DNA of 63,443 nt, counting the filler, from Folioceros fuciformis (lineage: Eukaryota), in assembly GCA_049999805.1 (NCBI GenBank). It is 5 parts of 5 records of this genome, joined end to end, with 100 filler letters (N's around TTAATTAATTAA, not from the genome) between each part and the next. Parts side by side here need not be neighbours in the genome. Positions count along the whole stretch, not along the records: positions 18,150 to 45,159 come from JBNGIO010004006.1; 4 more parts are not named here. One strand, written 5' to 3'. Below the pieces are notes generated by a model that had not been told where the DNA came from, did no database searches, and saw nothing but the letters and a program-made list of their open reading frames with translations. Both the position numbers and the translations under genes were made by a program. Positions 5,645-62,205 of the stretch are shown here, in pieces; position 1 is the stretch's first letter, and every line of letters starts with the position of its first letter.

Positions 5645-6212
5645 CAGGATGACCATGTTACTGTCCTTTGCGGCCGAACAGGATGACCATGTTACTATCC
5701 TTTGCGGCCAAACTGGATGACCATGTTACTATCCTTTACATGGATCCTTTGCAGGGATGACCATGTTACTGTCTTTGCGGCCAAACAGGATGACCATGTT
5801 ATTGTCCTTTGCAAGGATCCTTTGCAGGGATGACCATGTTACTGTCTTTGTGGCCAAACAGGATGACCATGTTACTATCCTTTATAGGGATGACCATGTT
5901 TACTGTCCTTTGCAGCCTGGGGGGATGACCATGTTACTGTCGTTTGCGGCCGGGGATGACCATGTTACTGTCCTTTGCGGCCGGGGATGACCATGTTACT
6001 GTCGTTTGCGGCCGGGGATGACCATGTTACTGTCGTTTGCGGCTGGGGATGACCATGTTACTGACGTTTGTGGCCGGGGATGACCATGTTACTGTCGTTT
6101 GCGGCCGAACACCATGTTACTGTCCTTTGCAGGGATGAATGACCATGTTACTGTCCTNNNNNNNNNNGGATGAATGACCATGTTACTGTCCTTTGCAGGG
6201 ATGAATGACCAT
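5645..6212. repeat. Minisatellite, about 18 units of ~27-41 bp (core GGATGACCATGTTACTGTCCTTTGCGGCC)
   Basis: Directly visible tandem array with a 10-N gap inside. It is continuous with the sequence upstream of copia B gag. Confidence 0.93.
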
Positions 6213-18049: not shown

Positions 18050-18149
18050 NNNNNNNNNNNNNNNNNNNNNNNNNNNNNNNNNNNNNNNNNNNNTTAATTA
18101 ATTAANNNNNNNNNNNNNNNNNNNNNNNNNNNNNNNNNNNNNNNNNNNN
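18050..18149. other. Artificial scaffold spacer (44N-TTAATTAATTAA-44N)
   Basis: The same 100-bp linker, with stops in all frames, recurs at 45160, 56943 and 62106. Confidence 0.97.
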
Positions 18150-21918: not shown

Positions 21919-24900
21919 ATGAAGACTCTTGTCACATCTCATGTCACCAAGTTCCGCCACCTGCGAGCTCAAATAGTTTCCCTTGGCTGCAAGATGGACG
22001 AGGTAGAGGTCGTTGCTCAACTGTTGAGCAGCCTCCCTTCTTCCTATCAAAATTCATCTACACATAGAATGGACCCATCCGGACTGCTCATCAGGCATCC
22101 NNNNNNNNNNNNNNNNNNNNNNNNNNNNNNNNNNNNNNNNNNNNNNNNNNNNNNNNNNNNNNNNNNNNNNNNNNNNNNNNNNNNNNNNNNNNNNNNNNNN
22201 CCTCTAGCAGCGCCCAAGTGGACAGGGAACTGTAACTGGTGTGGTGCCGCTGGGCATGTGAGTGCCGCAAGAAGAAAGATGACGAACCACAGCGATCACA
22301 GCCCACAAGACCGTCAACGAACGTTGTTGTCAAGGAGAAAGGAGAGAACTCTAAGGCTACAGTGAAGATACTCATAGTCTGTATGAGGACTTCATCGCAT
22401 GGCAAAGATGACTGGTTCCTAGACTCAGAAGCTACTGCACATATCTGCAACAACTGATTTATTCTCTAGTTTGACAATGTATCGAATGGAGGATAAAGTC
22501 TTGCTTGGCAATGAAAGGAGTGACACTAGCCTCTAAGTCAAAGGACATGGGGAATGTACCTTCATTCTCGATGACAACACAGTTCTGAAGGTCGCCGGAG
22601 TTCTATTTGTACCTAAGATGGCCAAGAATCTTCTGTCAATGAGCAAGATCATGTAGCTTTGGACGTATAAGATACGTGTCGCTGATGATGCCTGCTGCCT
22701 TTACAGGAAGAATTCCTCTAGTGCATGTGCAGTTAGAGGCATCCTCGACCATGACTCGTACAGGCTAGAGTTGAGGTGTTCCCCTCACCCTGTAAGTCAC
22801 TCCTCCTTTACTATCAACATGAAAACAACTAGGTTAGCATCCCTGTGGCACGCACGTCTAGGTCATGCTAAGCGACACAAACTCATTGACATGGCACGGA
22901 TAGGTTGTCACAGAGAACCCCTACCTGCTTGTTTTAGAGACCTCCCCATCTGCGAATCATGCATTCTCGCCAAACAGAAGGAGTTATCATTCCCCAAAGC
23001 TGCACACAGAGCAAAGACTCTCCTTGCCCTTGTACATCCTGATATCTCAGGCAAGATCCACGAGCGGCTGTCTTTGGGTGGAGCCTTGTACTACTTAACC
23101 CTTACAGACGACTTCAATCGGTATTCTTGGACTATACGCATGCAACTGAAAAGTGATACCCTTTTGCACTTCAATCAGTGGCTTCCAATTGCACAAAGAC
23201 AATCTGGATGCCTCCTTAAAGTCCTGCGCAGCGACAATGGGACAGAGTTCGTCAATAATGCATTTTACGACTATCTCCAAGAACAAGGCATACAGAGGCA
23301 GCTTATCGTCCCATATACCCAACAGTAGAACGACATTGCCGAAAGCAAAAAACCAGACACTATTAGGGATGACGAGGAGCATGCTACTCTATGCTAGCTT
23401 ACCTCAAGAGTATAAGGCGGAAGGTGTAGTTACAACCACGTATATACTTAACAGGATACTCACCAACTTTGTCCCTGGACAAACCCCGTATGAGGTATTC
23501 TGGCATAGGAAACCGAGCTTGCTCCATCTCCGAGTATTTGGATCAAAGGCCTTCGCCTATATCCCTGCAGAAAAATGCAAGAAGTTAGAAGACCGAGCTC
23601 AAAGTCTCCTTTTTGTGGGATACAGCAAACATGTGAAGGTCTATAAACTCTATAATCCTAACACCCGATCACTGGTCCTAACACGCAGTGTCACCCTTAT
23701 AGAACCATTACACCCAATGACTACCAACCTCACATCTCCCAACCCTTCAGAGGGAGTAGCTGGAGAGGACAGTCCTGACACTGTCACCTTCCCTATAGAT
23801 GAGGAAGAAGACCTCTCCAACTTCCCATCTGAGGAAGTAGATGACACTGTCGAGGTTCCCCCTGCCATTGGTCCTAACCGTATAGTAGACATAGGTGAAC
23901 CAGTAGAAGACCTTGTAGATGACAAAACAACTCGGCTGATGAGGAGGATGCTGTACCCGACCCTGACCAGCACCTCGAACCAGACCCTGCTCCAGAACCG
24001 TTCCTAAGACGTTCCACACGCCATAGGCCACCCCTAGACCAGTGGTTAGAACCTTATTACTAGTCAGTTGATTTTCGCACTTCTTCAGCAGTCTTTGGTG
24101 CTACTCAAAACATCCTTCCTGCTGAGGAACCCTCATCCTACAAGGAAGCCCTTCAAGGCCCGGATTGCTCCAAGTGGTAGGCAGCAATGGAGGAAGAATA
24201 CTAGTCTCTGCTCAAGAACAAGACCTGGCAAATCGCTGACCTCCCACTTGGACGCAAAGCTATCTCCTGTAAGTGGGTTTTTAAACTTAAACTCAATGCT
24301 AAAGGGGAGATTGCCAGATACAAAGCTAGGTTAGTGGCAAGAGGCTTCACCCAGGTTGAGGGCCTGGATTACCAGGAAACATTCTCACCTGTCGTTCGAG
24401 CACAGTCCATTCGCATCCTGCTGGCACTTGCAGCAGAGTAGGACCTCGACCTACAGCAAATGGACATATGCACTGCTTACCTTTATGGGGACCTAGATGA
24501 AGATTTGTATATGGCACAGTCTGAAGGAAAAGAAGATCTTGAACAAACCCTAAAGTACTTCAACCGCTTAAATGCACATATGGTATATCACCATGCATAT
24601 TTACCAACTGAGTATCTCCTTCGTTCAAAGCACAGCAGACTCCAACGTCTACCGGCTCAACCGAGGAAGCAGCTTCGTTATATTGGCTTTATACGTCGAC
24701 GATGTTATCCTCGTCACAAACAGTAACACTCTGTTAGTTGAGGTTAAGCAAAAACTCAGCACTAAGTTTGAGACGAAAGACATCGGAGAACTTAAATACT
24801 GTTTGGGAGTACAGTTTTTAAGAGTACGAGAAGAAGGTTTGCTAATAGTTCATCAGCACAAATACATCAGTGATATTCTGCGCAAGTTTAAACTTGACGA

Positions 24901-32343: not shown

Positions 32344-34995
32344 TCAAGCTTTTAGCCTCTCGTCACCAACCACAAAACTATGCACCCGTTCATCCTCGTC
32401 CGTCCACCAGCTCTGCCCCGGCTGCTTCCATGCTCGGATTCTCTTCCTCCTCGCCTGCATCTCCCGTGCCAGCTCCCACATCTGAGCACCTGTGTACATA
32501 TTGGACATGAGAACGTATGCCGTGGAGTCTTTCTTGTCCAGCTTCACCGCTTCGCTGAAGGCCAGGAGTCCGACCTCCATGCACCTCCACTTCCGGCATG
32601 CTCCCAGCAGAGTGTGCCAAATTGCAGCATTAGGCACCAAAGGCATCCCCCTTACCAAAGCTAGTGCCTCATCCAATTGTCCTGCACGGCCCAGCAGATC
32701 CACCATGCATGTGTAGTGGTCCAGAGTGGGAGTGATGCCGTAGTGTCTACTCATAGCCTCGAAGTACTCCCACCCCTCATTCACAAGACCCACGTGGCTA
32801 CATACTGTGAGCACACTGAGGAAGGTGATGCCGTCTGGCCATGTCCCTTCCTCTCTCATTCTCCGGACCAACTCGAACACCACTTCACTCTCTCCTCGCC
32901 AGGAGTAGCCTGCAATGAGTGAAGTCCACACCACAATGTCCCTTGGGTCTGATGTATCAAACACCCGCTGCGCATCTGCCATGCTCCCACACTTTCCATA
33001 CATGTTGATCAAACTGGCAGCCACACCCACATCACCTTCCAGTCCTTGCTCTACAATCTGCCCATGAAGCTGCCTTCCCAGGGACAGGGCTGCCACATGC
33101 GCGCATGCCTGCAAAAGGCACACAAAAGTCACGCAATCGGCCACGGCCATACCTTCTTGTTGCATGGCTTTGTACAGAGCGAGGGCTTCCTGCGCCAGTC
33201 CCTCCTGGCTATACCCTGCTATCAACGCAGTCCACGTCACCACGTTTTTCCGACCGAGGCCATCGAACAGCCTCCGAGCGTCTTCCAAGCTCCCACACTT
33301 TGCATACATGTTCACCAAACCACTGGCTACAAACACATCAGCTTCATGTCCGCCTTTTCTCACCTGCGTGTGTAGCTGCTTCCCCGTCTCCAAGGCCGCA
33401 CACCCCACACTCGCACAAGCCTGCAGGAGGCAAACAAATGTCACAACATTGGCTACAGCCGTGCCCTCTTCTTGCATAGCACAGTACAGGCCAAGAGCTT
33501 TCTGGCCCATGCCATGCTGGGAATACCCCGCCATTAAAGCGTTCCATGTCCCTACGCCTTTCTCACCAAGCGTGTCAAACACTCTCTGGGCTTCCTCCAA
33601 ACTGCCGCACTTTGCATACATGTTCACCAAACTGCTGGCCACATATGCTTCAGCTCCATATCCTGCTTCTCTAATTTGGGCGTGGAGTTGCTTCCCCTCG
33701 ACTAAAGCTGCAGGCCCCACACTTGCACATGCCTGCAGGAGGCACACAAACGTCACAGAGTCGGGTGCGACCATGCCCTCATCTTGCATGGCTGTGTACA
33801 GGCCGAGCGCTTTCTCACCCATGCCGTGCTGGGAATAGCCCCCTATCATGGCATTCCATACCACCACATTCTTCTCTTTCAGTCCGTTGAACACGTCCAG
33901 CGCATCCTCCAAGCTGCCACACTTTGCGTACATGTCCACCAAGCCACTGCAAACGAACAGGTCAGGCTCCACCCCACTTGCTAACACATCAGCATGAACC
34001 TGCTGCCCTGTTTTCAAGTCTAATGCCCTTGCACAAGCCTGAAGGGCGGCCACAAACACGTGCCCATCTGGCTTCACACCGGTCCTGCGCATCCGATGAT
34101 AGAGTTGCATGGCCTGCCTGTCATGGCCTTGTCTAACGTTGGCAGAGATTATGGCAGACCACGTGAAGGCATCCGGTCTGCCAACATTCTCAAACACATC
34201 CATCGCCTCTTGCAACCTGCCATGACAAGCATACATACGAAGCATGTGGAAGCCCAGGAACGTGTCTGACTGGTACCCCATCTTCACCGTGCAAGCCTGC
34301 ACGCGGGTACCCAGCGCAAGGTCTCTCCTCGCCGCACATTTCTTCAGGACTGTGTAAATGAGGGCCTTGGGAACACAGCCATCTCCTGTCACCACCAGAG
34401 ATTCCAACGCCGCCACAGCCTCTGTGACATGACCTTCCATACAAAACTGGCGCACCCTTTCTGCAATCAAATGCCTATCGTCCCCTGCAGGCCTGCTAGC
34501 GCCAGGGGGCCCTAGTATCTGCCTCCGTTCCACACCCACAATGTCCAGAGCAGCAAGCTGCGCATCCACCCAAGCTGGTTTGCGCAGGTTGTTCAACCAG
34601 AGGACCTCCTGGGACTTCCTGTGCCGGAAGTCAGGTGCTCCAAGGCTCTTCTTGCTTACCCTATTATCCCACCAACGTGTTGGGTCCCGGAAAAACTCTC
34701 GCCACAACTTCTTCTGCTGGTGGTCCACCAGACATCCCCATACATGGACTGGCTTTCTCGTTTCGTAGGGGATGCACCTCTCAGATTGCCTGTGCACCAA
34801 GCGTTGCTTCCCAGAGTTCGCGAGCAGAGCGGCAGCTCTAGCTCTGCCTGTACTACCCCTTGTCAACCCGCCATTTTGAGGACACCATGAAAACTGTCCT
34901 CTCAATACGCCCTCTTGCCCATTGCATGACTCGCACACAACCATCGGTGCTATCTGTAGCTCTGACTTCACAGAGTGGGAAAACGCCACGCCCAC
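32344..34995 (-). CDS. PLS-class PPR protein with N-terminal OSB-type PDF motif and E domain, truncated after a WW-type PG box
   Basis: 883-aa ORF with repeated MYAKCGSLEDA/WNAMI/VTFVCLLQAC motifs and C-terminal KQPGQSWWTD..VHSFVVGD. First ATG is at 34944; the true start is uncertain. Confidence 0.93.
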   Translation of the reverse strand: MGVAFSHSVKSELQIAPMVVCESCNGQEGVLRGQFSWCPQNGGLTRGSTGRARAAALLANSGKQRLVHRQSERCIPYETRKPVHVWGCLVDHQQKKLWREFFRDPTRWWDNRVSKKSLGAPDFRHRKSQEVLWLNNLRKPAWVDAQLAALDIVGVERRQILGPPGASRPAGDDRHLIAERVRQFCMEGHVTEAVAALESLVVTGDGCVPKALIYTVLKKCAARRDLALGTRVQACTVKMGYQSDTFLGFHMLRMYACHGRLQEAMDVFENVGRPDAFTWSAIISANVRQGHDRQAMQLYHRMRRTGVKPDGHVFVAALQACARALDLKTGQQVHADVLASGVEPDLFVCSGLVDMYAKCGSLEDALDVFNGLKEKNVVVWNAMIGGYSQHGMGEKALGLYTAMQDEGMVAPDSVTFVCLLQACASVGPAALVEGKQLHAQIREAGYGAEAYVASSLVNMYAKCGSLEEAQRVFDTLGEKGVGTWNALMAGYSQHGMGQKALGLYCAMQEEGTAVANVVTFVCLLQACASVGCAALETGKQLHTQVRKGGHEADVFVASGLVNMYAKCGSLEDARRLFDGLGRKNVVTWTALIAGYSQEGLAQEALALYKAMQQEGMAVADCVTFVCLLQACAHVAALSLGRQLHGQIVEQGLEGDVGVAASLINMYGKCGSMADAQRVFDTSDPRDIVVWTSLIAGYSWRGESEVVFELVRRMREEGTWPDGITFLSVLTVCSHVGLVNEGWEYFEAMSRHYGITPTLDHYTCMVDLLGRAGQLDEALALVRGMPLVPNAAIWHTLLGACRKWRCMEVGLLAFSEAVKLDKKDSTAYVLMSNMYTGAQMWELAREMQARRKRIRAWKQPGQSWWTDEDERVHSFVVGDERLKA

Positions 34996-35214: not shown

Positions 35215-38028
35215 TCAACGCAGGTCTCCGCATGAGCAAAAACCGTCCACAAAGTGGTGGACGCGGTGTGCGTCACGCACTATGATCTCTCGTTTTTCAA
35301 TCCGCGACAGCCTCTTCGTGGCACTGTGACAGTGATTGCACATACGCAGGTTTTTTGTGACGAGCAAAGTTGTACCATGCGGAGTGTTCAGGAGACCGTA
35401 GGCCACAGCCAGTTTCTCAGCATGTCCGCACAGAGTATCGCCATCACCTCCCTCTGTGCCTTCACACGGCAGCACGTGGCGGTCCTCCTCCAACCCCTCC
35501 CTCGCGCTCCTGAGCCTGTAGGAAACGTCGGCCCTTTCTTCTCCAACGCAGAACATGTGAACCCCGTCGCTCACCTCAATCCAAGCCCTTGCGGGCTCTT
35601 TACATGCACCTGCAGACTTCCTTAAGCCTTCTACTCTATCTACGTCCTGCCACCTACCGGCATGTGCGTATGTGTTGGCTAGCATCACATATGCGGCTGA
35701 GTTCTGAGGTTGCAGACTGACAAGTTGGTGGAAGCACCGCTTGGCAAGGTCCACATTGTTATGGCTTTGGCAGGCACGCAGAAGGGAAGTCCATCCCACA
35801 GCATCAGGCTCAAATGGCATGGCCTGCAACATGCTCAGTGCCTCATCTAGGCGGCCCGACCGGCCGAGCAGATCAACCATGCAAGTAAAGTGATGAACCG
35901 AGGGGGTGATGCCGTACCCTTCAACCATGAGACTGAACAAGTGCTTACCTTCTTGTACCAGACCACTGTGACTGCATGCCACAAGAAGAGACGTGAAAGC
36001 AGCAGCATCGGGCGTCACCCCATCCTGCTGCATTTCACGGAAGCACTGAAAGGCCATTTGGCTGTTGCTGTGCAGGCTATAGCCATTCAACAAAGCAGTC
36101 CACGTCACAACATCTCTTGTGGGCAGTCCGTCAAGCACTGCCCTAGCATCCTCCATGCGCCCACACTTTGCGTACATGTCCACCAGACTGTTGGCAGTCA
36201 CAATATCAGCTTCAAGTCCCCTTTCTCGGATCCGAGAGTGAATCTTTTTCCCCAGATGTATGGCTCCAATCCGGGCACATGCTTTCAATAGGCACGCAAA
36301 CAAGGTTGGACTGGCTGGAACGATGCTCTCCTGTTCCATGCTCCCATACAGTGTAAGAGCTTTTTGACAGTGCCCCTGCTCTGTGTAAGCCGTGATCAGA
36401 GCAGTCCATGTCACTACGTCTTTGCAAGGTAATCTATCGAACACGTTACGAGCCTCCTCTACGCTCCCACATTTTGCGTACATTTCAATCAGACTGCTGC
36501 CAACTACCACATCACATTCAACTCCGCTCTCCCGAATCAGGTAGTGGAGCCTCTTGCCCTCACTTAATGCTCCCACATTGGCACATGCCTTCAGGAGGCA
36601 CGCAACTGTGACATCATCTGGTCGTGTGATGCCTGCCCGTTGCATGCTTGCATACAAAGCGAGGCCTTCTTGATCAAGGCCGTGACGAACATATCCTGCA
36701 AGCATGGCATTCCAGGTCACCACATCTTTCACTGGCAATGCTGCAAACACCTGGTGAGCGTCATCGACGCTGCCGCATTTTGAATACATGTCCACCAGGC
36801 TACTGCCGATTGAGGCATTAGCCTCTAGTCCTTTGTCCTGAATCTCACGATGGACTTGCTTCCCTTGAAGTAAATCTCCAACAAGAGCACAAGCCTTTAG
36901 AAGACATAGAAAAGTAACTTCGTTCTTCCCAGCCGTGCCCTCCTGCTGCATGGCTTCGCAGAGAGCGAGGGCCTCTTCCCCAAGCCCATGCTGCACGTAT
37001 GCTGCAATCATAGCATTCCACGTTCCCACGTCTTTGCTGCACAAACCAGCAAACACTGTGCGAGCATCTTCCAGGCTCCCGCACTTCGCATACATATCGA
37101 TCAGGCTGTTCCCCACCACGACATCAGCTTCCAGACCTCGTTCCTGAATCTGCGAATGAAGCTCCTTTCCCCTGTGCAAGGCACCGATGCTGGCACAAGC
37201 ATTCAACAGGCATATGAAGGTGACACGACTGGATTGGGTAATGCCCTCCAATTGCATGGTGGTGCAAAGTGCCAGAGCTTCATGACCGAGCCCATGCTGG
37301 GCGTACCCTCCGATCATGGCATTCCATGTCACCACATCCTTCAAGGGCAATTTGTCAAACACTCTGCGAGCATCTTCCAAGCTCCCACACTTTGCATACA
37401 TGTCCACGAGGGCATTGCCAATAAACACATTGGGCTCCAACGTGCTTGACAGAATGTCGGCATGGATCTGCTTGCCAGCTGTCAAGTCGGCAGCAGAGGC
37501 ACATCCTTTCAGGGCCGCAACAAATAGGTGACTGTCCGGCATCACCGTCGACTGCACTTGCGCCTGTCGGTACAGTTTCACAGCCTGCACAGGTTGTCCA
37601 TGCTCGGCATATGCAAGAATCATGGAAGCCCACATGAAGGCGTTCGGTGCAGCTTGGCTGCTGAATACTTGTCGTGCCTCCGCCAGCAGTCCATGAGAAG
37701 CGAACATGCGAATGAAGTGGTTTGACAAGAAGGCGTTGGAACCGTGCCCACCTGCTTGCGCAAGATCGTGAACCCGCCTGCCTACCGCCAGATCGCCCCG
37801 TTCTATGCAACCCTTAAGGACGATGTATATCACTGTTGACGGAACATACCACCCTCGCTGGACCAAGAGGTCCAAGGCTGTGACAACAGAGGCCAGAACC
37901 ACTTCTTCCTCCCCTTGCCTGTTCCACCATTTACCGATCGAGACGCCTTCACACCCTGTCAACCCGCCAGGTTCAGGGCGAATGAGTCCACCTATCCTGG
38001 CAGCAGACCTGCCCAAAGACGAGATCAT
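35215..38028 (-). CDS. PLS-class PPR protein with DYW:KP-type deaminase-like domain (candidate U-to-C editing factor)
   Basis: Intronless ORF. C-terminus KEPARAWIEV..HMFCVGEERAD..LCGHAEKLAVAYGLLNTP..KNLRMCNHCH..RDAHRVHHFVDGFCSCGDLR. Confidence 0.93.
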   Translation of the reverse strand: MISSLGRSAARIGGLIRPEPGGLTGCEGVSIGKWWNRQGEEEVVLASVVTALDLLVQRGWYVPSTVIYIVLKGCIERGDLAVGRRVHDLAQAGGHGSNAFLSNHFIRMFASHGLLAEARQVFSSQAAPNAFMWASMILAYAEHGQPVQAVKLYRQAQVQSTVMPDSHLFVAALKGCASAADLTAGKQIHADILSSTLEPNVFIGNALVDMYAKCGSLEDARRVFDKLPLKDVVTWNAMIGGYAQHGLGHEALALCTTMQLEGITQSSRVTFICLLNACASIGALHRGKELHSQIQERGLEADVVVGNSLIDMYAKCGSLEDARTVFAGLCSKDVGTWNAMIAAYVQHGLGEEALALCEAMQQEGTAGKNEVTFLCLLKACALVGDLLQGKQVHREIQDKGLEANASIGSSLVDMYSKCGSVDDAHQVFAALPVKDVVTWNAMLAGYVRHGLDQEGLALYASMQRAGITRPDDVTVACLLKACANVGALSEGKRLHYLIRESGVECDVVVGSSLIEMYAKCGSVEEARNVFDRLPCKDVVTWTALITAYTEQGHCQKALTLYGSMEQESIVPASPTLFACLLKACARIGAIHLGKKIHSRIRERGLEADIVTANSLVDMYAKCGRMEDARAVLDGLPTRDVVTWTALLNGYSLHSNSQMAFQCFREMQQDGVTPDAAAFTSLLVACSHSGLVQEGKHLFSLMVEGYGITPSVHHFTCMVDLLGRSGRLDEALSMLQAMPFEPDAVGWTSLLRACQSHNNVDLAKRCFHQLVSLQPQNSAAYVMLANTYAHAGRWQDVDRVEGLRKSAGACKEPARAWIEVSDGVHMFCVGEERADVSYRLRSAREGLEEDRHVLPCEGTEGGDGDTLCGHAEKLAVAYGLLNTPHGTTLLVTKNLRMCNHCHSATKRLSRIEKREIIVRDAHRVHHFVDGFCSCGDLR

Positions 38029-39260
38029 TACCACCAGTGCTCCTGAAGGAAGGAAGCTTAGTGAAAATGACGAATTTCGAAGTTTAGAATTTCAAGTCGT
38101 GTTTCGAGCGCGGTGAAAGGAGGCACAGAGGGTTTGCTGCATCTGCGGTTGGAACAGCCTCCCGTTCCAGACAGAAATCTCTTCCGTTTCGTGCAGTCTG
38201 CGAGCACACAACACGAAGTGCGCAGATGATTTGTTGACGATCCCCGCTGAATACTGAATCAAGGGTTCCCAGATTCTTTTCCTCTCTAGGAACCGCTCCA
38301 CTGTATGCCTTCACTGACTGGGTTCACACACAGGCCTGGCAGCCCGGGTCTGACAGACAACCCAAAGTGGTGGGACAACAACGTAACGCTCATGGAGGCA
38401 TGACAACATCGCGTTAGTGCCATTGACGCAAATGCCTGTTGATGGCACGCTCGACAGCTTCAGTCTGTGTGGCAGAGGAGAAAAGTCGAGAAGGTGGAAC
38501 TCCATGGGGAGCTAGGGCTCTGCACCAGAGACTGGTGGTGGATGTGCAGCACGCCCCCAGGTCGGATGGCACCCCACAGCTGCGGCGACAGGTCCGGACT
38601 GCACTCGCAATTGCACCTCCAATCTGTCCGATGGAGGTGCTTTCGTGCTGGCTCATGGCTCCAGTCAGCCTTTCTTGGAGGTGAAGAAACCTTGGACCCT
38701 CTGATGCAGGAGGGGACTGGACAGGACAGCCTAGATGGTGGCAAGCAAACATTGAAAGACTATCATCGACCTGGCCGTCAGCTGATGGGCAGAAGTAATC
38801 CTCTTGAAGAAGAATCCGCGCTCTGCCGTTGCGCATACCTGGGCTGCCAGGTCCTTCATCTCTCCTTCTGCACCTTCTTTCCACGTTCTCGAGAAGTACT
38901 GTATGCTCGTAGCACAGGACGATCCGGTTTCCAGCAGGCGTGCTCACGGGGGTCATGCCCTCGCAATCAAGTGTGATACCGACTCCCGAGGCAAACATAA
39001 TGCAATGCTTCTGGTGGATCACATAATCCGCACGAATTCAAGCCTTTTGGTTGGCCCGGCGGCCAACCTGCCTGGACCTGGGAAAGGCCAGCCTACTCTA
39101 CTGTACAGTATGTATTGTATTACACATATTACAGATTACCTCCGTCAGGTGACGTGCTCGAAGCAAAAAAAAGCTCGCGGCGAACTCATACTCTGGATCT
39201 CTCCCTCTACTTTATCGACATATGTATCCTTCTTGTGAAAGGACGCTGTGGGATAGTGCC

Positions 39261-42480: not shown

Positions 42481-44925
42481 TCAACATCCAGCATCTGTGA
42501 GGCCACCATTGTACCCCACCTGCTTCAGATGTGTACTTAAATGATCCAGCACAGCGTACACCATTGGCTCATGTTCATGCCTGCGATCGCCCACGAGGAA
42601 TGTGTGCAAATGCTGTTCATGCTGGATCCAGCTCTGGCCAGGGGTCTTGCATGCACCTGCACAAAGTCTCAGAGTATTCACTTCCTGCGCGCAGTCCCAA
42701 AATCCAGCATTCGTATAGATGTTTGCCATGAGCACATAAGCCGCCGAGTGCTGCGGTTCCAGACCCACAGCACCGTGGAAGGCACGCTTCCCAAGCAACA
42801 CGTTACCATGCTTTTGACAGGCACCCAGCAAACACAACCACAGCGTCAAATCGGGTTCCATGGGCATCTGCGAAAGCATAACGTCTGTGAGGCTGAAGAG
42901 CCCAGCACGGCTGACCATATCGATGACGCAAGCATAATGCTCCAGCTCCACACAAATTCCATGCTCCCTGCTCATGTGTCCGAACAACTCCAGTCCTTTC
43001 TCCACCATGCCGGCATGAGCACATGCCAATAGCAACGAGACGAATGTGACTCCGTTTGGTTTCACTCCTCTCCCACACATTCTGTCGTAGCACTCCACAC
43101 TCAACCCAAAGCTTCCTTGGCGAGCGTAACCAGCAATCAGCGCAGTCCACGATATGACATCAGGCTGGGGCAATGAGTCAAACACGTTCTGAGCATCCTG
43201 CATGCTCCCACACTCGCTGTATGCATGAATGAGACTGTTTGCCACACAAAGACGCTGCTCCAACCCACTCTCTCGTATCCTCCCATGGATCTGCGCACAG
43301 GTGCTTAAGGCCCCTGCACGACTGCACGCTTCCAAGATACACACAAACGTGCCCTCATCTAGAATCATGCCCGTTGCCTCCAACTGGCCATAAAGTTGCA
43401 AGGCTTTTTCTCCTTGTTCCTGCTGGGCATATGCCGAAATCATGGCAGTCCAAGACACCAAATCATGCTTGGACAAAGAGTGGAACACCCGCTCTGCATC
43501 CTTGATGCTCCCACACTTTGAATACATACATATGGCTGCACTGTTGACAAAATCATCTGATCCAAATCCCATTCTCATAGCCTCCGAATGGACTTCCTTG
43601 CCCTGCCGCAGTGAGTCTACCTTCACTAACCTACCATCCACAAGAACTCCTTTCTCCTTGTCTGCAATCATGCCACAACCCTGGAGACTGCTGACAAAGG
43701 CCCATACATCTAGACTCAAACCCTCGTCCCTCATTTGCCGATACATCTGCACGGCCTCTCTTCCTAGGCCCTGCTGGCAAAATGCTGTCAACATGGCAGT
43801 CCACGACACCACATCTCGCTTTGCACTCGAATTGAACACCTGTCGTGCATCCATGACACTCCCGCACTTCGCATACACGGTTACCAAGATGCTAGTCACA
43901 AACGCATCCGCCTGGAAACCCATTGGAGCAGCTGCAGCATGCAGTTCCTTTCCGGTGTGCATTGACTTCAGCTTCACATTCAGCCCATCCACAACTGTGC
44001 TTTCCTCCTCTGCCGCAAGACTCCCACATGCTCGAAGGGCACTCACAAACGTTCGCGCATCTGGGCTGACCCCTTCCCTCTGCATCTGCGAGTACGTCTG
44101 CAAGGCCATTTCAGCATCCCCCTGATGATTGTATCCTGCGAGCATCGCATTCCAGGTCACCATAGTCCGCACAGATAACCTATCGAACACTTGCTGTGCA
44201 TCCACAATGCTGCCACACTTAGCATACATACTAACCAAACTGCTGCCAACAAAAGCATCCGACTCACATCCATACCTTGCAACCGCAGCGTGAATGCGCC
44301 TGCCCTGCTCCAGATCCCTGGCCCTGCTGCATGCTTTCAGTAAGCTGACAAACGTGTAGTTGTTGGGCTGCACGCCTTCCTGTTGCATGTGCTGGAAACA
44401 TGACAGAGCCTCCCGACACTGGCCCCTGTCGCTGTACCCTGACACAAGGGCCGTCCAAGAGAAGGAGGTTCGCTGTGGCAAGCTCCAGAACAGCTGGACT
44501 CCCTCTGCAAAGCTCCCAGCGCCAACAAGCGCGGCGACCAGAAGCTCTCCCACGCAGGCGTTGCAATCCAAGCCGTACTTTGCCAGATGAGCATGTATGC
44601 ACCTGACCTGGGCCTGGGCCTGGGCTCGGGCTTGGGCAAAGCCTTTCTTTTTCTGTTGCAAGCACACCTGCAACAAGCTCTTACACACGTGCACGGAAGG
44701 GGTACTCCCCTGCTGTTCCATACAAGCCAGCACAGCCAATGCCTCCGTCATCTTTCCAGCCTTGCACAAATTCTCAACTTGCCGTGCATGATCCGCACAC
44801 CGAGGTTGGTCTCTGTTACCAATCAAGAGACAATATGTCAGCGGCGTGGAGGAGGCGGTGAGGAGCCATGAAATGCGTATGTATACACACAAAAACAGAG
44901 ACATTAAAGGCAACAACAAGCACAC
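42481..44925 (-). CDS. PLS-class PPR protein, E/E+ type (PG box, no catalytic DYW part)
   Basis: 814-aa ORF ending KTPGQSWIQHEQHLHTFLVGD..LKQVGY. Two L motifs carry ~17-aa insertions. The start is uncertain. Confidence 0.92.
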   Translation of the reverse strand: MCLLLPLMSLFLCVYIRISWLLTASSTPLTYCLLIGNRDQPRCADHARQVENLCKAGKMTEALAVLACMEQQGSTPSVHVCKSLLQVCLQQKKKGFAQARAQAQAQVRCIHAHLAKYGLDCNACVGELLVAALVGAGSFAEGVQLFWSLPQRTSFSWTALVSGYSDRGQCREALSCFQHMQQEGVQPNNYTFVSLLKACSRARDLEQGRRIHAAVARYGCESDAFVGSSLVSMYAKCGSIVDAQQVFDRLSVRTMVTWNAMLAGYNHQGDAEMALQTYSQMQREGVSPDARTFVSALRACGSLAAEEESTVVDGLNVKLKSMHTGKELHAAAAPMGFQADAFVTSILVTVYAKCGSVMDARQVFNSSAKRDVVSWTAMLTAFCQQGLGREAVQMYRQMRDEGLSLDVWAFVSSLQGCGMIADKEKGVLVDGRLVKVDSLRQGKEVHSEAMRMGFGSDDFVNSAAICMYSKCGSIKDAERVFHSLSKHDLVSWTAMISAYAQQEQGEKALQLYGQLEATGMILDEGTFVCILEACSRAGALSTCAQIHGRIRESGLEQRLCVANSLIHAYSECGSMQDAQNVFDSLPQPDVISWTALIAGYARQGSFGLSVECYDRMCGRGVKPNGVTFVSLLLACAHAGMVEKGLELFGHMSREHGICVELEHYACVIDMVSRAGLFSLTDVMLSQMPMEPDLTLWLCLLGACQKHGNVLLGKRAFHGAVGLEPQHSAAYVLMANIYTNAGFWDCAQEVNTLRLCAGACKTPGQSWIQHEQHLHTFLVGDRRHEHEPMVYAVLDHLSTHLKQVGYNGGLTDAGC

Positions 44926-45259
44926 ATCACCTGGAAGGAAGAGGAATCTCCCGCAGTAACTGAGCTTGCAGCATCGTGAGCAAGCATTCGCGAAGTGGCT
45001 AATTGTTCTGAGACACTAACAACAGCCTCTGTGGAACCCTTCACAATGCAGACCTCTGCAATTCAAGACAGGCCATGCCTTCTTGATTGTCCCATTTCGT
45101 CTGTTGCTCTTACACTGCTGACTGCTATGCATTGGGAAAATGACAACCAGTACATCTTTNNNNNNNNNNNNNNNNNNNNNNNNNNNNNNNNNNNNNNNNN
45201 NNNTTAATTAATTAANNNNNNNNNNNNNNNNNNNNNNNNNNNNNNNNNNNNNNNNNNNN

Positions 45260-47947: not shown

Positions 47948-49846
47948 TATAATCACACTTGTGCTCTCACTTTGATGATTTCTTTTTCACTTCTTTTCTT
48001 TTTTGTTTTCCTAGCCATCATCCTATTCCAATAGCCTACGAGTCTGGCCTGTCAAGTGAGGAGAACAACAATAACTTGGGCTGGCTTCAGATGCGTGCAA
48101 CAATGCAACTTCTCTCCGAGAGCGCACACGTGGTACCACTGACGGGAATAGCCAACATGGTGCGACATCGCAGCCACGCTGAGCTGAATGTCCGTGTTAC
48201 TGCTCGCATTGAGGAGCAGGAGTGGTAGGTTCCGATCGGCAGCCTGGATCTAAAGGGCTGTAAGATGAACGAAGTGCTCGAGCTGAAGTCGAGTCGCAGC
48301 CTGGAGCGACCAAGGACTGCAGGGAATCCGCACGCTGAGGCGGGACCCCGAATCGGAGAAAACATGCCGGTTGGAGAGGCCGCGGTGCAGGAGATGGGCA
48401 CCGTCCAGGAGAGAAAATCAGCGGGAGCAAGGGGTCCGCGCTGATCCGCGGAGGATAAAGGAGAAAGGGCTTTAAACTGGCGCGCGATTTCGACATGAGG
48501 GTCCCACTCTGCCCCTTTTCTGTTCAATAAACTGCAGTATCTTCCGCCCCTAAGAGCCGAGAAGGCTGGTAAGGTAGGGGCGCTGGCATCCCTCCACACA
48601 CCGGCCGTGGATAGGCGCCCCACGTGGTGTGGCGTGGACAGGGGATCGGCATGCCGGCACCCGGTGCCCCTTCGCGCTTGGAGATGTGGGGCGGGANNNN
48701 NNNNNNTTCGCGCTTGGAGATGTGGGGCGGGAAGGGCGCCACCATGCCGGCACACTCCCTCCCGTTGGAATCGGCGATCCCAACAGAGTGCTGGGTCTCG
48801 TCCGTGGGTTTAGTCCCAGGAAACTCCGGCACCGATACCTCTTGTGAACTCATCTGGAGGTGTAGAACCTGGCGACTAGCACGTGTACTGAGGCAGGACG
48901 CTGGCATGCCGGCGGTCCGCGAAGGGCTATGGCATCCTCAGAAGAAAACGTGTCGGTGGCCGGCTTCCCCAGTCTACAGTTGGAGTCAATATTCTTGCAA
49001 GCCGGCACAACTCGGCGTACCTGCATTCAGAGAGACACAAGAAGCACCTTCTCTACGTCCTCCAGAAGCCGGTTCCGGAGCATGACAGGAACCTCGGACA
49101 GATCCCCGATTAGTCCTTCTGCCAGCATCGCATTATACACATCCTGTACACCTATGCAAACGCAACTTCAATCTCTTGCCTCACAATTATGCACTGCTTG
49201 ACGCCACAATCCTAAAATAAAGAACCTCGCAGCTGCTGAAATTTTCACTCGGATCCTCCGTAGAGGCCACTCGCGCTCCTAAATGCAAAGGGAGCAGAAG
49301 CTGAGCCCCACATCACGACGACCAATGCAACAGAGCCCTGCACCAATTCCGCGCCCCGGTAACAAGCAGGAGATCGAAGCCAGCAGGTTCATGTGTTCTC
49401 ACCATGTGCCCCGACTCCATGCCCTGGAAAGCGGTCCCCACAGCTTGAGCAAACAGGCCAAACTTGACCGCGGACCATAATCCGTTCAGAGCCTTGGTGG
49501 AGCAGCTAAGCTGGCTGAGAACAGCCCGGTAGTGAGGCGCAGGCGCTCCCAGAGGATCTGGCGTAGCCGTTCTAGAGAGCAATATCCTCAGAATCAGACG
49601 GCAAGGGCAGGCAGTGATATCCGGCCGAAGTTCCGAAGATTCAGCCGTACCTCTAAGGGATACGTAACTGTTGCGTCCAGTCTAGCACAAAACCATGCTC
49701 CCGCTTCAGCTCCTCCATATCTAGGAGCCTGGCCAACCTTTTAGCCCGCACTAAACCCTAAGTGAAGGGATGACTGATTGTCTGATTCTCTGTCTAGTCA
49801 TATGGTGCATAAGGCAGTCGGACGCGACATCTGCAAGGGTACATAC

Positions 49847-55985: not shown

Positions 55986-57042
55986 TATTAAGCACATACT
56001 ATGTGCGAACCTCCAAAGTTTGGGGTAGTGGTTTGGGGTAGTGGTTTCTTTTGGTTGAAAAAGGGTTGACAGCGGTATGGTTTGGTTTACTTTTTCAACT
56101 TATTCTCCCTAATTTTCCTTTATTTTCTAGTCATTTTTCCTATTTTTTTAATACTAATTAGGTTAATTGACCGGTAAATAATTAGTTTGGTTATCAGATG
56201 GGTATAGGTTTGGTCCCAGACCTAGAAAAGTTAAGGTATGGTACCGGACCATAGGGTCGAGAAAGTTTGAATTCAGGTTTGGTGATTGGTGCAATATTAA
56301 TTAAAGGTAGATAATATTAAATATTTAAATATTAATTAAATAATGAAATAATTAAATAACTATTTGAACCTAGGAGCAGGAATATGTCAGGTGGTCAGGC
56401 TGGCTGTCAGGGTTGCATTATTGAGAAAACAGCCGTGAGAGTTGTGCCCTAGCTAGGGCATGACTGCAGCCATTCCCATCCCCATTCCTCTCCCTCCCTT
56501 TTCCCACATTCTTCTTCCCTACCTCTTTTCTCCCTTCCTTCTCAATCTCTTTGTCCTGTCCTTCCCTTGAATTCAAGCTGCAGCTAGAAGGATCCATCCT
56601 CGAGAGTTGGGATTGAATGTGCTGTAGGAGTGGTATGAGCTGGGAAGCAAGGAGTGGCACACCGTCTAGGGAACCAGGCTGCATACTTGAAGGAATCAAC
56701 TCACCACCGTGATATAGGAAGCCAACCGCTGCGGAATTTGGCCAGGCTGATGGGATTGGGGTGCACACCGCGGATTTCAGGAGCCCAAGCTGCTGATGAG
56801 CTGGATGCACTGTAGGCTGTAGACTGGGGGAAGTGCGCTACAAAGATCTTCAAGCCGGATTACAGAAGATTGAGACGTCTTACCTCGGCAATTCCAACCT
56901 CCTGTCCGCCCATCAGCACTGTCCCCATCCTCGCTGCTGTCTNNNNNNNNNNNNNNNNNNNNNNNNNNNNNNNNNNNNNNNNNNNNTTAATTAATTAANN
57001 NNNNNNNNNNNNNNNNNNNNNNNNNNNNNNNNNNNNNNNNNN

Positions 57043-59625
57043 TGCTGCTCAACATACTCCACCAGGCAATCCAGTTGCTCCCGTCGAGGATCCTGCAGCA
57101 CCTTTCCTTCCAGATTTCGCTGAGAATGCTCCAAATCCGACCAATGTCCCTGCTCCTGTACCAGTACCAGCACAATATGAGCAAGAGCATCAAGGCATTC
57201 TAGACGATGTTTCACAAACTTCAAATGCTTCAGCCGACGCCGATCCGTTACCAGATTTTGCAGTGCAGGCTGATGATGATATCCCTATACCAGCTCCACC
57301 AGCTGAGCGCAGATATCCCGTCCGAGAAAGGTTACCACCAGCTCAGTGGAAAGAACCTCCATACTAGTCAGTCGATTTCCGGCGGCCTAGGGCAAGCCTC
57401 TCTCTGAAGGATACCGCTGATGAACGTCCTGTTTTCAAGCCCGAGCCACGCACCTACTCTGAGGCTATCACTGGAGCTGATAAAGCTCATTGGATACCCT
57501 CCATCCAAGATGAATATGATTCACTTATTAAGAACGACACATGGGAACTTTGCCCTCTACCTGCAGGACGTAAAGTGGTCAGCTGTAAGTGGGTATTCAA
57601 GCACAAACTTAATGAAAAAGGCGAGATTGCTAGATATAAATCCCGTCTTGTTGCTCGGGGCTTCACTCAAATTCCGGGTGTTGATTTTCAAGACATCTTC
57701 AGCCCTGTCGTTAAAACACAATCCATCAGAATCATACTTGCCCTTGCAGCTGCTAATGCCTGGGATTTGCAACAGATGAATGTCTGTATAGCATTTTTGT
57801 ATGGCAAGCTCGAAGAGGATATATACATGCAACAACCAGAGGGTTTTGTTGATTCAGAACATCCTACTTGGGCTTGTCGTTTGAAGAAAACCATTTACGG
57901 TCTCAAGCAGTCTGCCCGTAAATGGTACAAAACCATAGATAAATACCTTAAGTTCATTGGTTTTGTGCAGAATCCTGGCGATGCCAACGTGTATATGTAC
58001 TCTAAGGGTGGCCATCTCGTCATCTTGGCCCTTTATGTTGATGACGCCATTTTGGCATCCAACAATCCGGAGTCACTCTCTTGGGTTAAGAGTATGCTGC
58101 ATAAGCAATTTGACATGAAAGATATCGGTTCTCTCACCTTTATGCTTGGAGTTCAGTTGGTTAGTAACGTGGATGAGCAAACTCTTATTCTTCACCAGCG
58201 CAAGTATATCGTTGAGACTCTTCACCGATTCCATCTGGCTTCTTCCAATCCTGTGTCTACTCCAGGTGTCCCTAGCCTCAAACTTTCCACTGACGATTGC
58301 CCTACTGATGATGCTGAGCGTCAGGCCATGTTCTAGTATCCGTATCGTCATGCCGTTGGATGTTTAAATTACATCAGCTGTTGGACTCGCCCAGATATCC
58401 AGTATGCTGTCAGCTCGGTTTCACAATTTCTCGACAATCCTGGCCAAGCCCACTGGAGTGCGGTTAAGCGCATCTTGCAGTATCTTAAAGGAACTATGAC
58501 TTGCGGCTTATGCTTCAGGGGGCAAGAAAGCACACCTACTGTGTATGGATTTGCTGATGCCGATTGGGCCACCAATCCAGATGCCAGGCGAAGCATATCA
58601 GCCTACTGTTTCATCCTTTCTAATGCCGTTGTCTAGTGGAGCTCTAAGAAGCAAGCTTCTGTGTCTCTGTCCTCTACCGAGGCAGAGTACAAAGCCCTAA
58701 CTGAAGTTGCCAAGGAGGCTGTCTGGGAGCGTGCTTTCCTGCAGGGCCTTGGGTTTCCACAGCAGCAGCCGACGCTCCTTCATTTCGACAACATTTCTAC
58801 CATCCATATGACAACTAATCCCCATTTTCACGCACGTACCAAGCACATCGAAGTGCAACATCACTTTATTCGCTAACAAGTGGAGGAGAAGGTGGTCAGG
58901 CTCCAGCATGTCTCCACAGATCTTAACACGGCAGATTTGTTGACCAAGTATCTGCCCGCCAACAAACACTATCAGTTCATGGAGGCTCTAGGTGTGGGGC
59001 CATGTCCGGCTCCTTAGCATCTTTGTCTTATAGCTACAGGTGGTGCGGATGAAGCTCCACGTTTCAGTCCTAATCGCACACTGCAGCTGGAAGGTGACAG
59101 CAGTCACTTATCAGGAGGAAGGGGACATGCGGCAGCATTTTTCAGTTGTTCTACTAGCATTTCTTCTTCTATTATCAGGTATTGTGGTTCGGGGACCTTC
59201 ACAGCCGAGAAAGCGATCCACAGCCGGCANNNNNNNNNNNNNNNNNNNNNNNNNNNNNNNNNNNNNNNNNNNNNNNNNNNNNNNNNNNNNNNNNNNNNNN
59301 NNNNNNNNNNNNNNNNNNNNNNNNNNNNNGATCACGAACGCGCATCCTGCCAGATACTCTGTGAAGGATCCCGCCATATCTGCCACCTTTGCGTTGCTAA
59401 CAGAACGCTCCGTTTAAGGGGGCGTGTTAAGATATATAACCCCTACGTTTAGGGTTATGTATATATAAGTAAACGTAGCTATTGTTAGCAGCCTAGACTT
59501 TAGGGTTATGAATAGTCATGACTCTTAAAATTTGTATATAATTTATATCTGTGCTTAATTTATCATCTTCTGCTTTTGGTAATTGTGTGTGCACACTGCT
59601 CTTAGAAAATTATCACTTGTGGACA
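57043..59625 (+). mobile_element. Ty1/copia element E (RT-RNase H-3' LTR), related to elements C and D
   Basis: [35 protein letters not shown] and ADADWA. PPT AAGGGGGCG is followed by TGTTAAG at 59425. The right LTR end is approximate. Confidence 0.9.
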
Positions 59626-62105: not shown

Positions 62106-62205
62106 NNNNNNNNNNNNNNNNNNNNNNNNNNNNNNNNNNNNNNNNNNNNTTAATTAATTAANNNNNNNNNNNNNNNNNNNNNNNNNNNNNNNNNNNNNNN
62201 NNNNN

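What the first reader, a model, noticed from the sequence alone, without database searches (positions are those of the whole stretch)
34543..34707. PPR editing factor fused to an OSB-type PDF ssDNA-binding motif
Seen: upstream of the PLS array the ORF encodes LWREFFRDPTRWWDNRVSKKSLGAPDFRHRKSQEVLWL..PAWVDAQL in frame, without an intron. Known: this matches the ~50-aa PDF motif (WWDNR..K..PDFKH..LWL) of plant Organellar Single-stranded DNA Binding proteins (OSB1-4/pTAC9), which binds ssDNA. Inference: a PDF-PPR-E chimera could tether RNA editing to the organellar nucleoid or to R-loops for co-transcriptional editing. I know of no functional description of such a fusion.
Basis: partly seen in the sequence, partly recalled or inferred. 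Interest (0 to 1): 0.72.

Follow-up and report, generated by a model that had tools for sequence, protein, structure and literature searches.

The report
OSB-type PDF motif fused to PPR
A plant RNA-editing-type PPR gene really does carry, at its front end, the small single-stranded-DNA-binding "PDF" module otherwise known from organellar OSB proteins, and the same fusion recurs in liverwort, peat-moss, clubmoss and fern genes without, as far as I could find, ever having been described.

Summary
The minus-strand ORF 32344-34995 encodes one uninterrupted protein: a presequence, a PDF motif (aa 92-151, nt 34543-34722), a short linker, a PLS-type PPR array and an E motif. It ends just after a PG-box-like stretch and has no DYW deaminase.

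The motif scores 67.6 bits against an HMM built only from eight verified OSB-type proteins; the best of 1000 shuffles scored 7.5. It keeps 17 of 17 invariant or near-invariant positions. It hits proteins named OSB1 and OSB3 at E about 1e-19 to 1e-20.

This is not a one-off chimera. 15 of the 150 best PDF hits also carry PPR arrays, and 28 of the 120 best PPR homologues carry N-terminal PDF hits. Named cases come from Calypogeia, Sphagnum, Diphasiastrum, Adiantum and a Pteridium transcript; 0 of 24 named seed-plant homologues have one.

AlphaFold models the motif as a compact helix-strands-helix module on a flexible linker. No solved relative was found.

Function is inferred: a sequence-independent single-strand nucleic-acid grip at the 5'-facing end of the PPR tract. 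Expression of this particular gene could not be tested. Five literature searches found no description of the fusion.

The parts
32344..34995 (-). Whole ORF, stop codon included: 883 codons from the upstream in-frame stop. The first ATG is codon 18, which gives an 866-aa protein.
   Evidence: first ATG and the upstream stop were read
34723..34944 (-). Presequence, aa 18-91: a putative organelle-targeting region with 10 R+K against 5 D+E. It evolves fast (15% identity to P0325) and its GC content is flat across codon positions.
   Evidence: Targeting was not tested because no predictor was available.
34543..34722 (-). PDF motif, aa 92-151: HQQKKLWREFFRDPTRWWDNRVSKKSLGAPDFRHRKSQEVLWLNNLRKPAWVDAQLAALD
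   Evidence: AF2 core pLDDT is above 90.
34399..34542 (-). Linker, aa 152-199. About aa 154-164 are modelled as disordered. Helices resume at about aa 173, so the first PPR-like hairpin starts before the Pfam-detected repeats.
   Evidence: pLDDT below 50 at segment residues 85-95; 27% identity to P0325
32581..34398 (-). PLS-class PPR array, aa 200-805
   Evidence: PPR 220 bits in 10 stretches, PPR_2 236 bits, PPR_1 134 bits
32407..32580 (-). E motif, aa 806-863
   Evidence: PF20431, 34.0 bits against a cut-off of 27.3
32347..32406 (-). C-terminal tail, aa 864-883, continuing the PG-box-like stretch (..KQPGQSWWTDEDERVHSFVVGDERLKA) and followed by the stop. No DYW deaminase follows.
   Evidence: The same DYW-less end is seen in the closest relative P0246. 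The 'PG box' label is recalled, not from a call.

Best explanation
SHOWN. The locus is an intact, intronless nuclear-type gene for a modular protein: presequence, one PDF motif, a flexible linker of about 10-20 residues, a PLS-class PPR array, an E motif and a PG-box-like end, with no DYW deaminase. It belongs to a recurrent PDF(1-3 copies)-PPR-E(-DYW) subfamily found in liverwort, Sphagnum, lycophyte and fern. It is not an OSB protein, because it has no OB fold.

INFERRED MECHANISM. The PPR array reads a specific organellar RNA sequence, and the E/E+ end recruits a deaminase supplied in trans, as DYW-less PLS proteins do. By established PPR polarity the N-terminal repeats face the 5' side of the RNA footprint. 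The PDF module hangs from that end and adds a sequence-independent grip on single-stranded nucleic acid.

By homology with OSB proteins, whose PDF motif suffices for ssDNA binding and which prefer ssDNA to RNA, the most likely partner is single-stranded DNA at the organellar nucleoid or transcription bubble. That would concentrate the editing factor where nascent transcripts emerge. The anatomy and family membership are about 0.9 likely. The ssDNA/nucleoid-tether mechanism is about 0.45 likely, and that is the confidence given.
For: Motif identity:
- 67.6 bits against an HMM from eight verified OSB-type proteins; the best of 1000 shuffles scored 7.5. 72.4 bits against a 302-copy HMM.
- 17 of 17 invariant or near-invariant columns are kept (checked by eye against the segment).
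- Hits include 'protein OSB1, mitochondrial-like [Populus nigra]' (E 1.3e-19) and 'organellar single-stranded DNA binding protein 3 [Euphorbia peplus]' (E 1.5e-20).
- 49 of the 135 hits left after removing the 15 PPR-positive ones carry Pfam SSB at E<=0.01.

Real fusion rather than artefact:
- The ORF is continuous: 0 stops in frame against 8 and 8 in the other frames.
- The PDF region has the same GC-by-codon-position pattern as the PPR part (0.58/0.42/0.68 against 0.61/0.43/0.62).
- No ATG lies between codon 18 and codon 196. Codon 196 sits inside the first conserved helical hairpin.

Recurrence:
- 15 of the 150 best PDF hits have PPR arrays, always C-terminal to the PDF.
- 28 of the 120 best PPR homologues have an N-terminal PDF hit: 21 full-length, 6 that begin inside the motif, and 1 decayed.
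- One case is an ORF from an assembled Pteridium transcript (P0104).

Constraint:
- Against relative P0325 the PDF is the best-conserved region: 62% identity, against 48% for PPR-E, 27% for the linker and 15% for the presequence.
- P0246 and P0325 align collinearly from the PDF to the end, and are closer (55% and 48%) than the window's own neighbouring PPR genes (43% and 38%).

Fold: two AF2 runs give the same helix, two short strands, helix module with core pLDDT above 90, separated from the PPR solenoid by a stretch with pLDDT below 50.

Function by homology, from passages read:
- The PDF motif of AtOSB1 is sufficient for ssDNA binding (PMC6963530; PMC6451138).
- OSB1 and OSB2 prefer ssDNA to dsDNA or RNA (PMC4166229).
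- Many PPR proteins associate with nucleoids and the site of transcription (PMC10226603).
Against: - There is no expression, splicing or localisation evidence for this gene.
- The presequence has a flat, non-coding-like GC pattern (0.54/0.54/0.55). Only 219 nt separate this ORF from the upstream neighbour's stop.
- The closest relative, P0246, has a decayed PDF core (37% identity, PDF(K/R)H lost), so the module is dispensable in at least one lineage.
- Diphasiastrum gene models include isoforms with 2, 1 or 0 PDF copies.
- In about ten fusion models the PDF starts within 25 residues of the annotated Met, leaving no room for a transit peptide. This may reflect truncated gene models, or it may argue against organellar targeting.
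- Nucleic-acid binding by a PPR-linked PDF has never been measured. The primary OSB paper (Zaegel et al. 2006) was not held, so the OSB biochemistry comes from secondary sources.
- No solved structure resembles the model (best Z 5.1), so the fold gives no independent functional hint.
Confidence: 0.45

Rival explanations
1. RNA clamp or helper. The PDF module binds single-stranded RNA rather than DNA, immediately 5' of the PPR footprint. It raises affinity or keeps the target unfolded, acting as a built-in helper for PLS-type editing factors in plants outside the seed plants.
For: The PDF is tethered by a short flexible linker to the N-terminal, 5'-facing end of the PPR tract. It is basic and aromatic-rich: 13 R+K and 8 W/F/Y in 60 residues. 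In the named sample the fusions are confined to non-seed plants, with 0 of 24 seed-plant PPR homologues carrying a PDF. Seed-plant PLS proteins rely on separate MORF/RIP helpers that raise RNA binding (passage in PMC10226603). That MORF/RIP proteins are limited to seed plants is recalled and not checked here.
Against: OSB1 and OSB2 are reported to prefer ssDNA over RNA (PMC4166229 passage). No RNA-binding data exist for any PDF motif. The taxon sample is small and limited to the best-scoring rows of two searches.
Confidence: 0.3
2. Protein-interaction or oligomerisation module. In the PPR context the PDF serves mainly to contact other proteins, such as OSB/SSB-coated DNA, a trans-acting DYW deaminase or another copy of itself, rather than nucleic acid.
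For: The protein lacks its own deaminase and must recruit one. AtOSB2 is reported to form tetramers (PMC6963530 passage). The conserved aromatic residues could equally form an interaction surface.
Against: Fusions that carry their own DYW domain also keep the PDF, for example P0103 and P0325 (Pfam list). Which part of OSB2 mediates tetramerisation is not stated in the passages read. No interaction was tested here.
Confidence: 0.1
3. The motif is not part of the working protein in this species. Either translation or transcription starts downstream, or this copy is an unexpressed or decaying paralogue in a retrotransposon-rich region and the PDF is a relic.
For: There is no RNA evidence for this gene. 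The presequence has a flat GC pattern. The spacer to the upstream gene is only 219 nt. Copia fragments lie in the window. The closest relative P0246 has a decayed PDF.
Against: The reading frame is intact over 883 codons. All 17 conserved PDF positions are kept. The PDF region has a coding-like GC3 pattern. The next in-frame ATG, codon 196, would remove both the presequence and part of the first conserved helical hairpin. The PDF is the most conserved segment against P0325.
Confidence: 0.1

Closest known systems
OSB proteins (Organellar Single-stranded DNA Binding; Arabidopsis OSB1-4)
   Same: It shares the PDF motif itself, with the same roughly 60-residue signature W..FF..P..WWDNR..K..PDF(K/R)H..LWL..P.WV. 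The window motif aligns end to end with PDF copies of proteins named OSB1 (Populus) and OSB3 (Euphorbia).
   Different: The window protein has no OB-fold/SSB-like domain. The PDF sits N-terminal to the partner domain instead of C-terminal, and the partner is a PPR array. It shares a module with OSBs but is not a member of the OSB family. The 2026 OSB survey required both OB-fold and PDF and so would not have counted such proteins (PMC13393729, methods passage).
PLS-class PPR RNA-editing factors of the E/E+ subgroup (DYW-less, deaminase supplied in trans)
   Same: It has a tandem PLS-type PPR array, an E motif above Pfam's cut-off, and an end just after a PG-box-like stretch without a deaminase.
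   Different: It carries an extra folded N-terminal PDF module between the presequence and the first repeat. The architecture passages found in a 2024 PPR review list no such domain for PLS-class proteins (PMC11897456).
PDF-PPR gene models in Diphasiastrum complanatum, Sphagnum spp., Calypogeia fissa, Adiantum spp. and Pteridium aquilinum (annotated only as hypothetical or PPR proteins)
   Same: They share the order presequence, PDF, linker, PLS-PPR, E. The closest are the unnamed P0246 (55% identity) and P0325 (48%), both collinear from the PDF onward.
   Different: PDF copy number varies from 1 to 3. Some keep a full DYW domain (P0103; P0325). Some have a PPR motif directly after the PDF, with almost no linker (Sphagnum-type fragments).

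Membership tests
PDF motif (the ssDNA-binding module of OSB proteins) | A conserved sequence signature of about 50-60 aa that scores against PDF copies taken from bona fide OSB proteins | tested here: met
   67.6 bits over HMM positions 2-61 of a model built from 29 copies in eight verified OSB-type proteins; the best of 1000 shuffles scored 7.5 bits. 17 of 17 invariant or near-invariant columns are kept.
PDF motif (the ssDNA-binding module of OSB proteins) | Binds single-stranded DNA | not testable with these tools
   Known for AtOSB1 only, from review passages.
OSB protein family | An OB-fold-like (SSB-like) domain N-terminal to the PDF motif(s) | tested here: not met
   Pfam finds no SSB or OB family in P0001 or in its first 165 residues at E<=1. 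The PDF is preceded only by a 74-residue presequence.
PLS-class PPR editing factor, E/E+ subgroup | Tandem PPR (P/L/S) motifs | tested here: met
   PF01535 220 bits in 10 stretches; PF13041 236 bits.
PLS-class PPR editing factor, E/E+ subgroup | A C-terminal E motif | tested here: met
   PF20431 at aa 806-863, 34.0 bits against a cut-off of 27.3.
PPR-DYW editing factor | A DYW cytidine deaminase domain | tested here: not met
   No PF14432 hit in P0001. No DYW-like frame lies downstream of the stop. tblastn with the C-terminus of P0325 hits only the neighbouring gene, at 35227-35613.
PLS-class PPR editing factor, E/E+ subgroup | Organelle targeting and site-specific C-to-U editing | not testable with these tools
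   No targeting predictor, organelle genome or transcriptome of the species was available. Only composition could be examined.

The most novel reading that the evidence does not exclude
PDF-PPR proteins are an ancient, unrecognised class of organellar editing and RNA-processing factors in bryophytes, lycophytes and ferns. A built-in ssDNA/ssRNA-binding PDF module docks them on the nucleoid or on the nascent transcript, making editing co-transcriptional. In this reading the module does the job that separate helper proteins such as MORF/RIP took over in seed plants, which would explain why the fusion is missing from the seed-plant homologues sampled here.
Probability: 0.2. Interest if true: 0.8.

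Novelty: new variant of a known kind. Interest (0 to 1): 0.62.

Why it matters
PPR editing factors are normally described as a PPR tract plus E/DYW domains. The PDF motif is described as a hallmark of OSB genome-maintenance proteins. A recurrent, conserved fusion of the two in at least four major non-seed plant lineages links organellar RNA editing physically to a module known to bind single-stranded DNA.

This gives a concrete handle on an open question: where in the organelle, and when relative to transcription, editing factors meet their targets. It also shows that the PDF motif has an evolutionary life outside OSBs, which OSB surveys that require an OB fold will miss. And it offers a small, confidently folded and structurally uncharacterised nucleic-acid-binding module that could be added to designer PPR proteins.

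Tried and rejected
- Word-indexed protein searches with the 55-aa motif ('longer' lengths) and with residues 60-165 of the protein found nothing. The exhaustive HMMER search then found 597 hits, so those blanks were a sensitivity limit.
- Pfam has no model for the motif.
- The ESM Atlas gave no usable hit.
- A PDB sequence search gave only chance matches at E 0.2-0.6 to N-termini of light-harvesting-complex proteins.
- Fold searches with the 96-residue model gave nothing at Foldseek E<=0.001 (best E 6.2). The best VIA-align Z was 5.1, a generic helical match. So no solved relative was identified; this does not show the fold is new.
- Expression: the look-up of sequencing runs listed no holder on record as RNA.
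- No whole genome is held for the window.
- The search of earlier findings returned nothing in three look-ups.
- The primary OSB paper (Zaegel et al. 2006) is not held, so the OSB biochemistry is quoted from secondary passages. Supplementary tables of the 2026 OSB paper were not seen; they might list PDF-only proteins.
- Chance similarity is rejected.
- Recent loss of the DYW domain by a nonsense mutation is rejected: there is no remnant downstream, and relative P0246 has the same end.
- A tree of 218 PDF copies over 55 columns (FastTree) shows the PPR-linked copies strongly clustered: 9 label changes against a shuffled mean of 43, with 0 of 500 shuffles as low. It cannot decide between one and two origins; only 3 of 215 inner branches are starred. 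For that tree, OSB copies were thinned to under 62% mutual identity (171 of 336 kept) and PPR-linked copies to under 90% (47 of 50 kept).
- My first tally of '38' PDF-positive PPR homologues counted domain rows. The correct number is 28 of 120 proteins.
Full report
**1. What is in the sequence**

The finding lies on the minus strand. It sits inside one uninterrupted ORF, 32344-34995(-), which is 883 codons counted from the upstream in-frame stop. The first ATG is codon 18 (nt 34942-34944). The next in-frame ATG is codon 196, which is already inside the first conserved helical hairpin.

Pfam finds ten PPR stretches (PF01535 220 bits, PF13041 236 bits) and an E motif at aa 806-863 (34.0 bits against a cut-off of 27.3). 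It finds no DYW deaminase, and nothing at all in the first 165 residues. The protein ends ..KQPGQSWWTDEDERVHSFVVGDERLKA*, just after what I recall is called the PG box.

No DYW-like frame follows the stop. A tblastn search with the DYW end of relative P0325 hits only the neighbouring gene. The closest relative, P0246, ends in the same way, so the DYW-less end is inherited and not a fresh nonsense mutation.

**2. Is the N-terminal region coding?**

The 199 codons ahead of the PPR array have no stop in frame and eight in each of the other frames. None of 20000 base shuffles stayed open. GC by codon position in the PDF part (0.58/0.42/0.68) resembles that of the PPR-E part (0.61/0.43/0.62). The 74-residue presequence is flat (0.54/0.54/0.55). 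That fits a fast-evolving targeting peptide, but it is also what non-coding DNA would show. Only 219 nt separate the ORF from the stop of the upstream PPR-DYW gene.

**3. Is it a PDF motif?**

Yes.
- An exhaustive phmmer search of 1.84 billion representatives with aa 70-165 returned 597 proteins at E<=1e-3 and 158 at E<=1e-10. Many hold several copies of the motif, up to 13 stretches.
- Among them are 'protein OSB1, mitochondrial-like [Populus nigra]' (E 1.3e-19) and 'organellar single-stranded DNA binding protein 3 [Euphorbia peplus]' (E 1.5e-20).
- Of the 135 listed hits in which my phmmer screen saw no PPR, 49 carry Pfam SSB at E<=0.01. In the ones inspected, the OB fold precedes the motif copies, which is the OSB architecture.
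- An HMM built from 302 copies in those 135 proteins scores the window protein 72.4 bits at aa 92-151.
- That training set could contain fragments of PPR fusions, so I rebuilt the model from 29 copies in eight verified OSB-type proteins (six with a Pfam SSB hit, two named OSB). The score was 67.6 bits over HMM positions 2-61. The best of 1000 shuffles scored 7.5 bits, and the two neighbouring PPR proteins gave no hit.
- In a 38-sequence alignment the window keeps all 17 invariant or near-invariant residues.
- The motif occurs once in the window.

**4. It is a family, not a one-off**

A phmmer screen with the window's PPR part found PPR arrays in 15 of the 150 best PDF hits. In all 15 the PDF lies N-terminal to the array, in one to three copies. 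At least four more short hits run from the PDF straight into a PPR-like motif.

In the reverse direction, 28 of the 120 best PLS-PPR homologues of the whole protein have an N-terminal PDF hit. Of these, 21 are full-length, 6 are models that begin inside the motif, and 1 is decayed.

Named sources are:
- Diphasiastrum complanatum: 15 of 24 named homologues, plus P0144, P0108 and P0126.
- Calypogeia fissa: 3 of 4.
- Sphagnum species: 2 of 2, plus P0142, P0103 and P0116.
- Adiantum capillus-veneris (P0077, P0028) and A. nelumboides (P0122).
- An ORF from an assembled Pteridium aquilinum transcript (P0104).

None of 24 named seed-plant homologues has a PDF, and neither do the few Selaginella, Ceratopteris and Ceratodon rows. 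The sample is limited to the best-scoring rows of two searches. P0103 (Sphagnum compactum) is PDF-PPR-E-E+-DYW, so the fusion also occurs with a complete editing domain.

**5. Relationship to its neighbours**

The window holds three tandem minus-strand PLS genes: this one, a PPR-E-DYW gene at 35215-38034 and a PPR-E gene at 42481-44925. The window protein is closer to the unnamed PDF-PPR proteins P0246 (55%) and P0325 (48%) than to its own neighbours (43% and 38%). Both alignments are collinear from the first residue of the PDF to the end.

Against P0325 the PDF is the best-conserved segment: 62% identity, against 48% for PPR-E, 27% for the linker and 15% for the presequence. In P0246 the PDF core has decayed to 37%, with PDF(K/R)H lost. 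The module is therefore under constraint in some lineages and dispensable in at least one.

A FastTree of 218 PDF copies over 55 columns shows the PPR-linked copies strongly clustered: 9 label changes against a shuffled mean of 43, with 0 of 500 shuffles as low. The window's copy is sister to that of P0325, in a group with the fern copies. With so few columns the tree cannot separate one origin from two.

**6. Structure**

AlphaFold2 on aa 70-165 with a 38-row alignment gives mean pLDDT 81.9, with the core blocks above 90. The elements are a helix, two short strands and a helix. A second run on aa 70-430 with 26 PDF-PPR rows reproduces these elements. It shows a stretch with pLDDT below 50 at protein aa 154-164 and places the first helical hairpins from about aa 173. 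The PDF is thus modelled as an independent folded module on a short flexible tether at the N-terminal end of the PPR solenoid. Foldseek and VIA-align found no convincing solved relative.

**7. How it probably works**

Shown: the domain order, the identity of each module, the absence of a deaminase, and the recurrence and partial conservation of the fusion.

Inferred: PPR tracts bind RNA with their N-terminal repeats towards the 5' side, and DYW-less E/E+ proteins need a deaminase in trans. Both points are established knowledge of the family and were not tested here. The PDF would therefore sit 5' of the footprint.

Review passages state that the PDF motif of AtOSB1 suffices for ssDNA binding (PMC6963530; PMC6451138). 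They also state that OSB1 and OSB2 prefer ssDNA to dsDNA or RNA (PMC4166229). Another review passage notes that many PPR proteins associate with nucleoids and the site of transcription (PMC10226603).

I therefore rank the mechanisms as follows:
- A nucleoid or ssDNA tether that places the factor next to nascent RNA, about 0.45.
- A 5' RNA clamp or helper role, about 0.3.
- A protein-interaction role, about 0.1.
- The motif not being part of the working protein in this species, about 0.1.

**8. Comparison with what is known, and novelty**

The protein shares a module with OSBs but fails the defining OB-fold feature, so it is not an OSB. It meets the tested features of a PLS-class E/E+ PPR protein.

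Five full-text searches found no paper describing a PDF motif in a PPR protein. The 2026 OSB phylogeny paper has no occurrence of 'PPR' or 'pentatricopeptide', and it selected proteins holding both OB-fold and PDF (passages). The passages of a 2024 PPR review returned by my term search on architecture list no such N-terminal domain for PLS proteins. The primary OSB paper and all supplements could not be read. The large PPR survey by Gutmann et al. 2020 was not looked up, so I cannot exclude a mention there.

I rate the finding a new variant of a known kind: two known modules in an undescribed, widespread combination.

**9. What remains open**

- Expression and the true 5' end of this gene.
- Subcellular targeting.
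- Nucleic-acid specificity of PPR-linked PDFs.
- The number of origins of the fusion.
- Whether its absence from seed plants holds in complete proteomes.

Noticed in passing
window 35215-38034 (-) and 42481-44925 (-): Two further intronless PLS-PPR ORFs lie in tandem on the same strand: a 939-aa PPR-E-DYW protein whose C-terminus reads ..CSCGDLR, and an 814-aa PPR-E protein. Neither has a PDF motif. They are 43% and 38% identical to the PDF-PPR protein, which is less than its relatives from other sources.
   Followed up: partly
window 23153-24007 (+), 57575-58336 (+), 60282-61301 (+): ORFs with retroelement domains (SH3_retrovirus; RVT_2; Pol_BBD plus gag_pre-integrs) flank the PPR cluster. 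They look like pieces of Ty1/copia-type retrotransposons.
   Followed up: no
window 18050-18149, 45160-45259, 56943-57042, 62106-62205; 22101-22200, 59230-59329; 6158-6167, 48697-48706, 62820-62829: The window holds 582 N in a regular pattern: four places with two 44-N blocks 12 bases apart, two 100-N gaps and three 10-N gaps. These are presumably masking and assembly gaps.
   Followed up: no
relatives P0144/P0153-P0155 and P0108/P0156-P0167 (Diphasiastrum complanatum gene models): Annotated isoforms of single genes differ at the N-terminus and carry 2, 1 or 0 PDF copies. For one gene, 7 of 13 isoforms have a PDF hit. This suggests the PDF copies lie on separate exons there and may be alternatively included.
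   Followed up: partly
relative P0246 (unnamed, 797 aa): The closest homologue (55% identity) keeps the flanks of the PDF motif (LW.EFF.DP..WWD.R and AWVD) but has lost the central K..PDF(K/R)H..LWL part. This is a decaying PDF within an otherwise intact PPR-E+ protein.
   Followed up: partly
hits P0041 (Coptis chinensis, 1526 aa) and P0021 (Striga hermonthica, 1063 aa): PDF copies also appear in a kinesin-motor gene model and in a model named 'Interactor of constitutive active ROPs 2'. The latter also has an SSB fold. Both look like OSB genes merged with neighbouring genes by annotation rather than real fusions.
   Followed up: no
window 34543-34600 (-), aa ~132-151: The end of the motif (LWLNNLRKPAWVDAQL) weakly resembles the N-terminal LWLP..ERPAWLDG stretch of solved light-harvesting-complex proteins (E 0.2-0.6). 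I take this to be chance.
   Followed up: no
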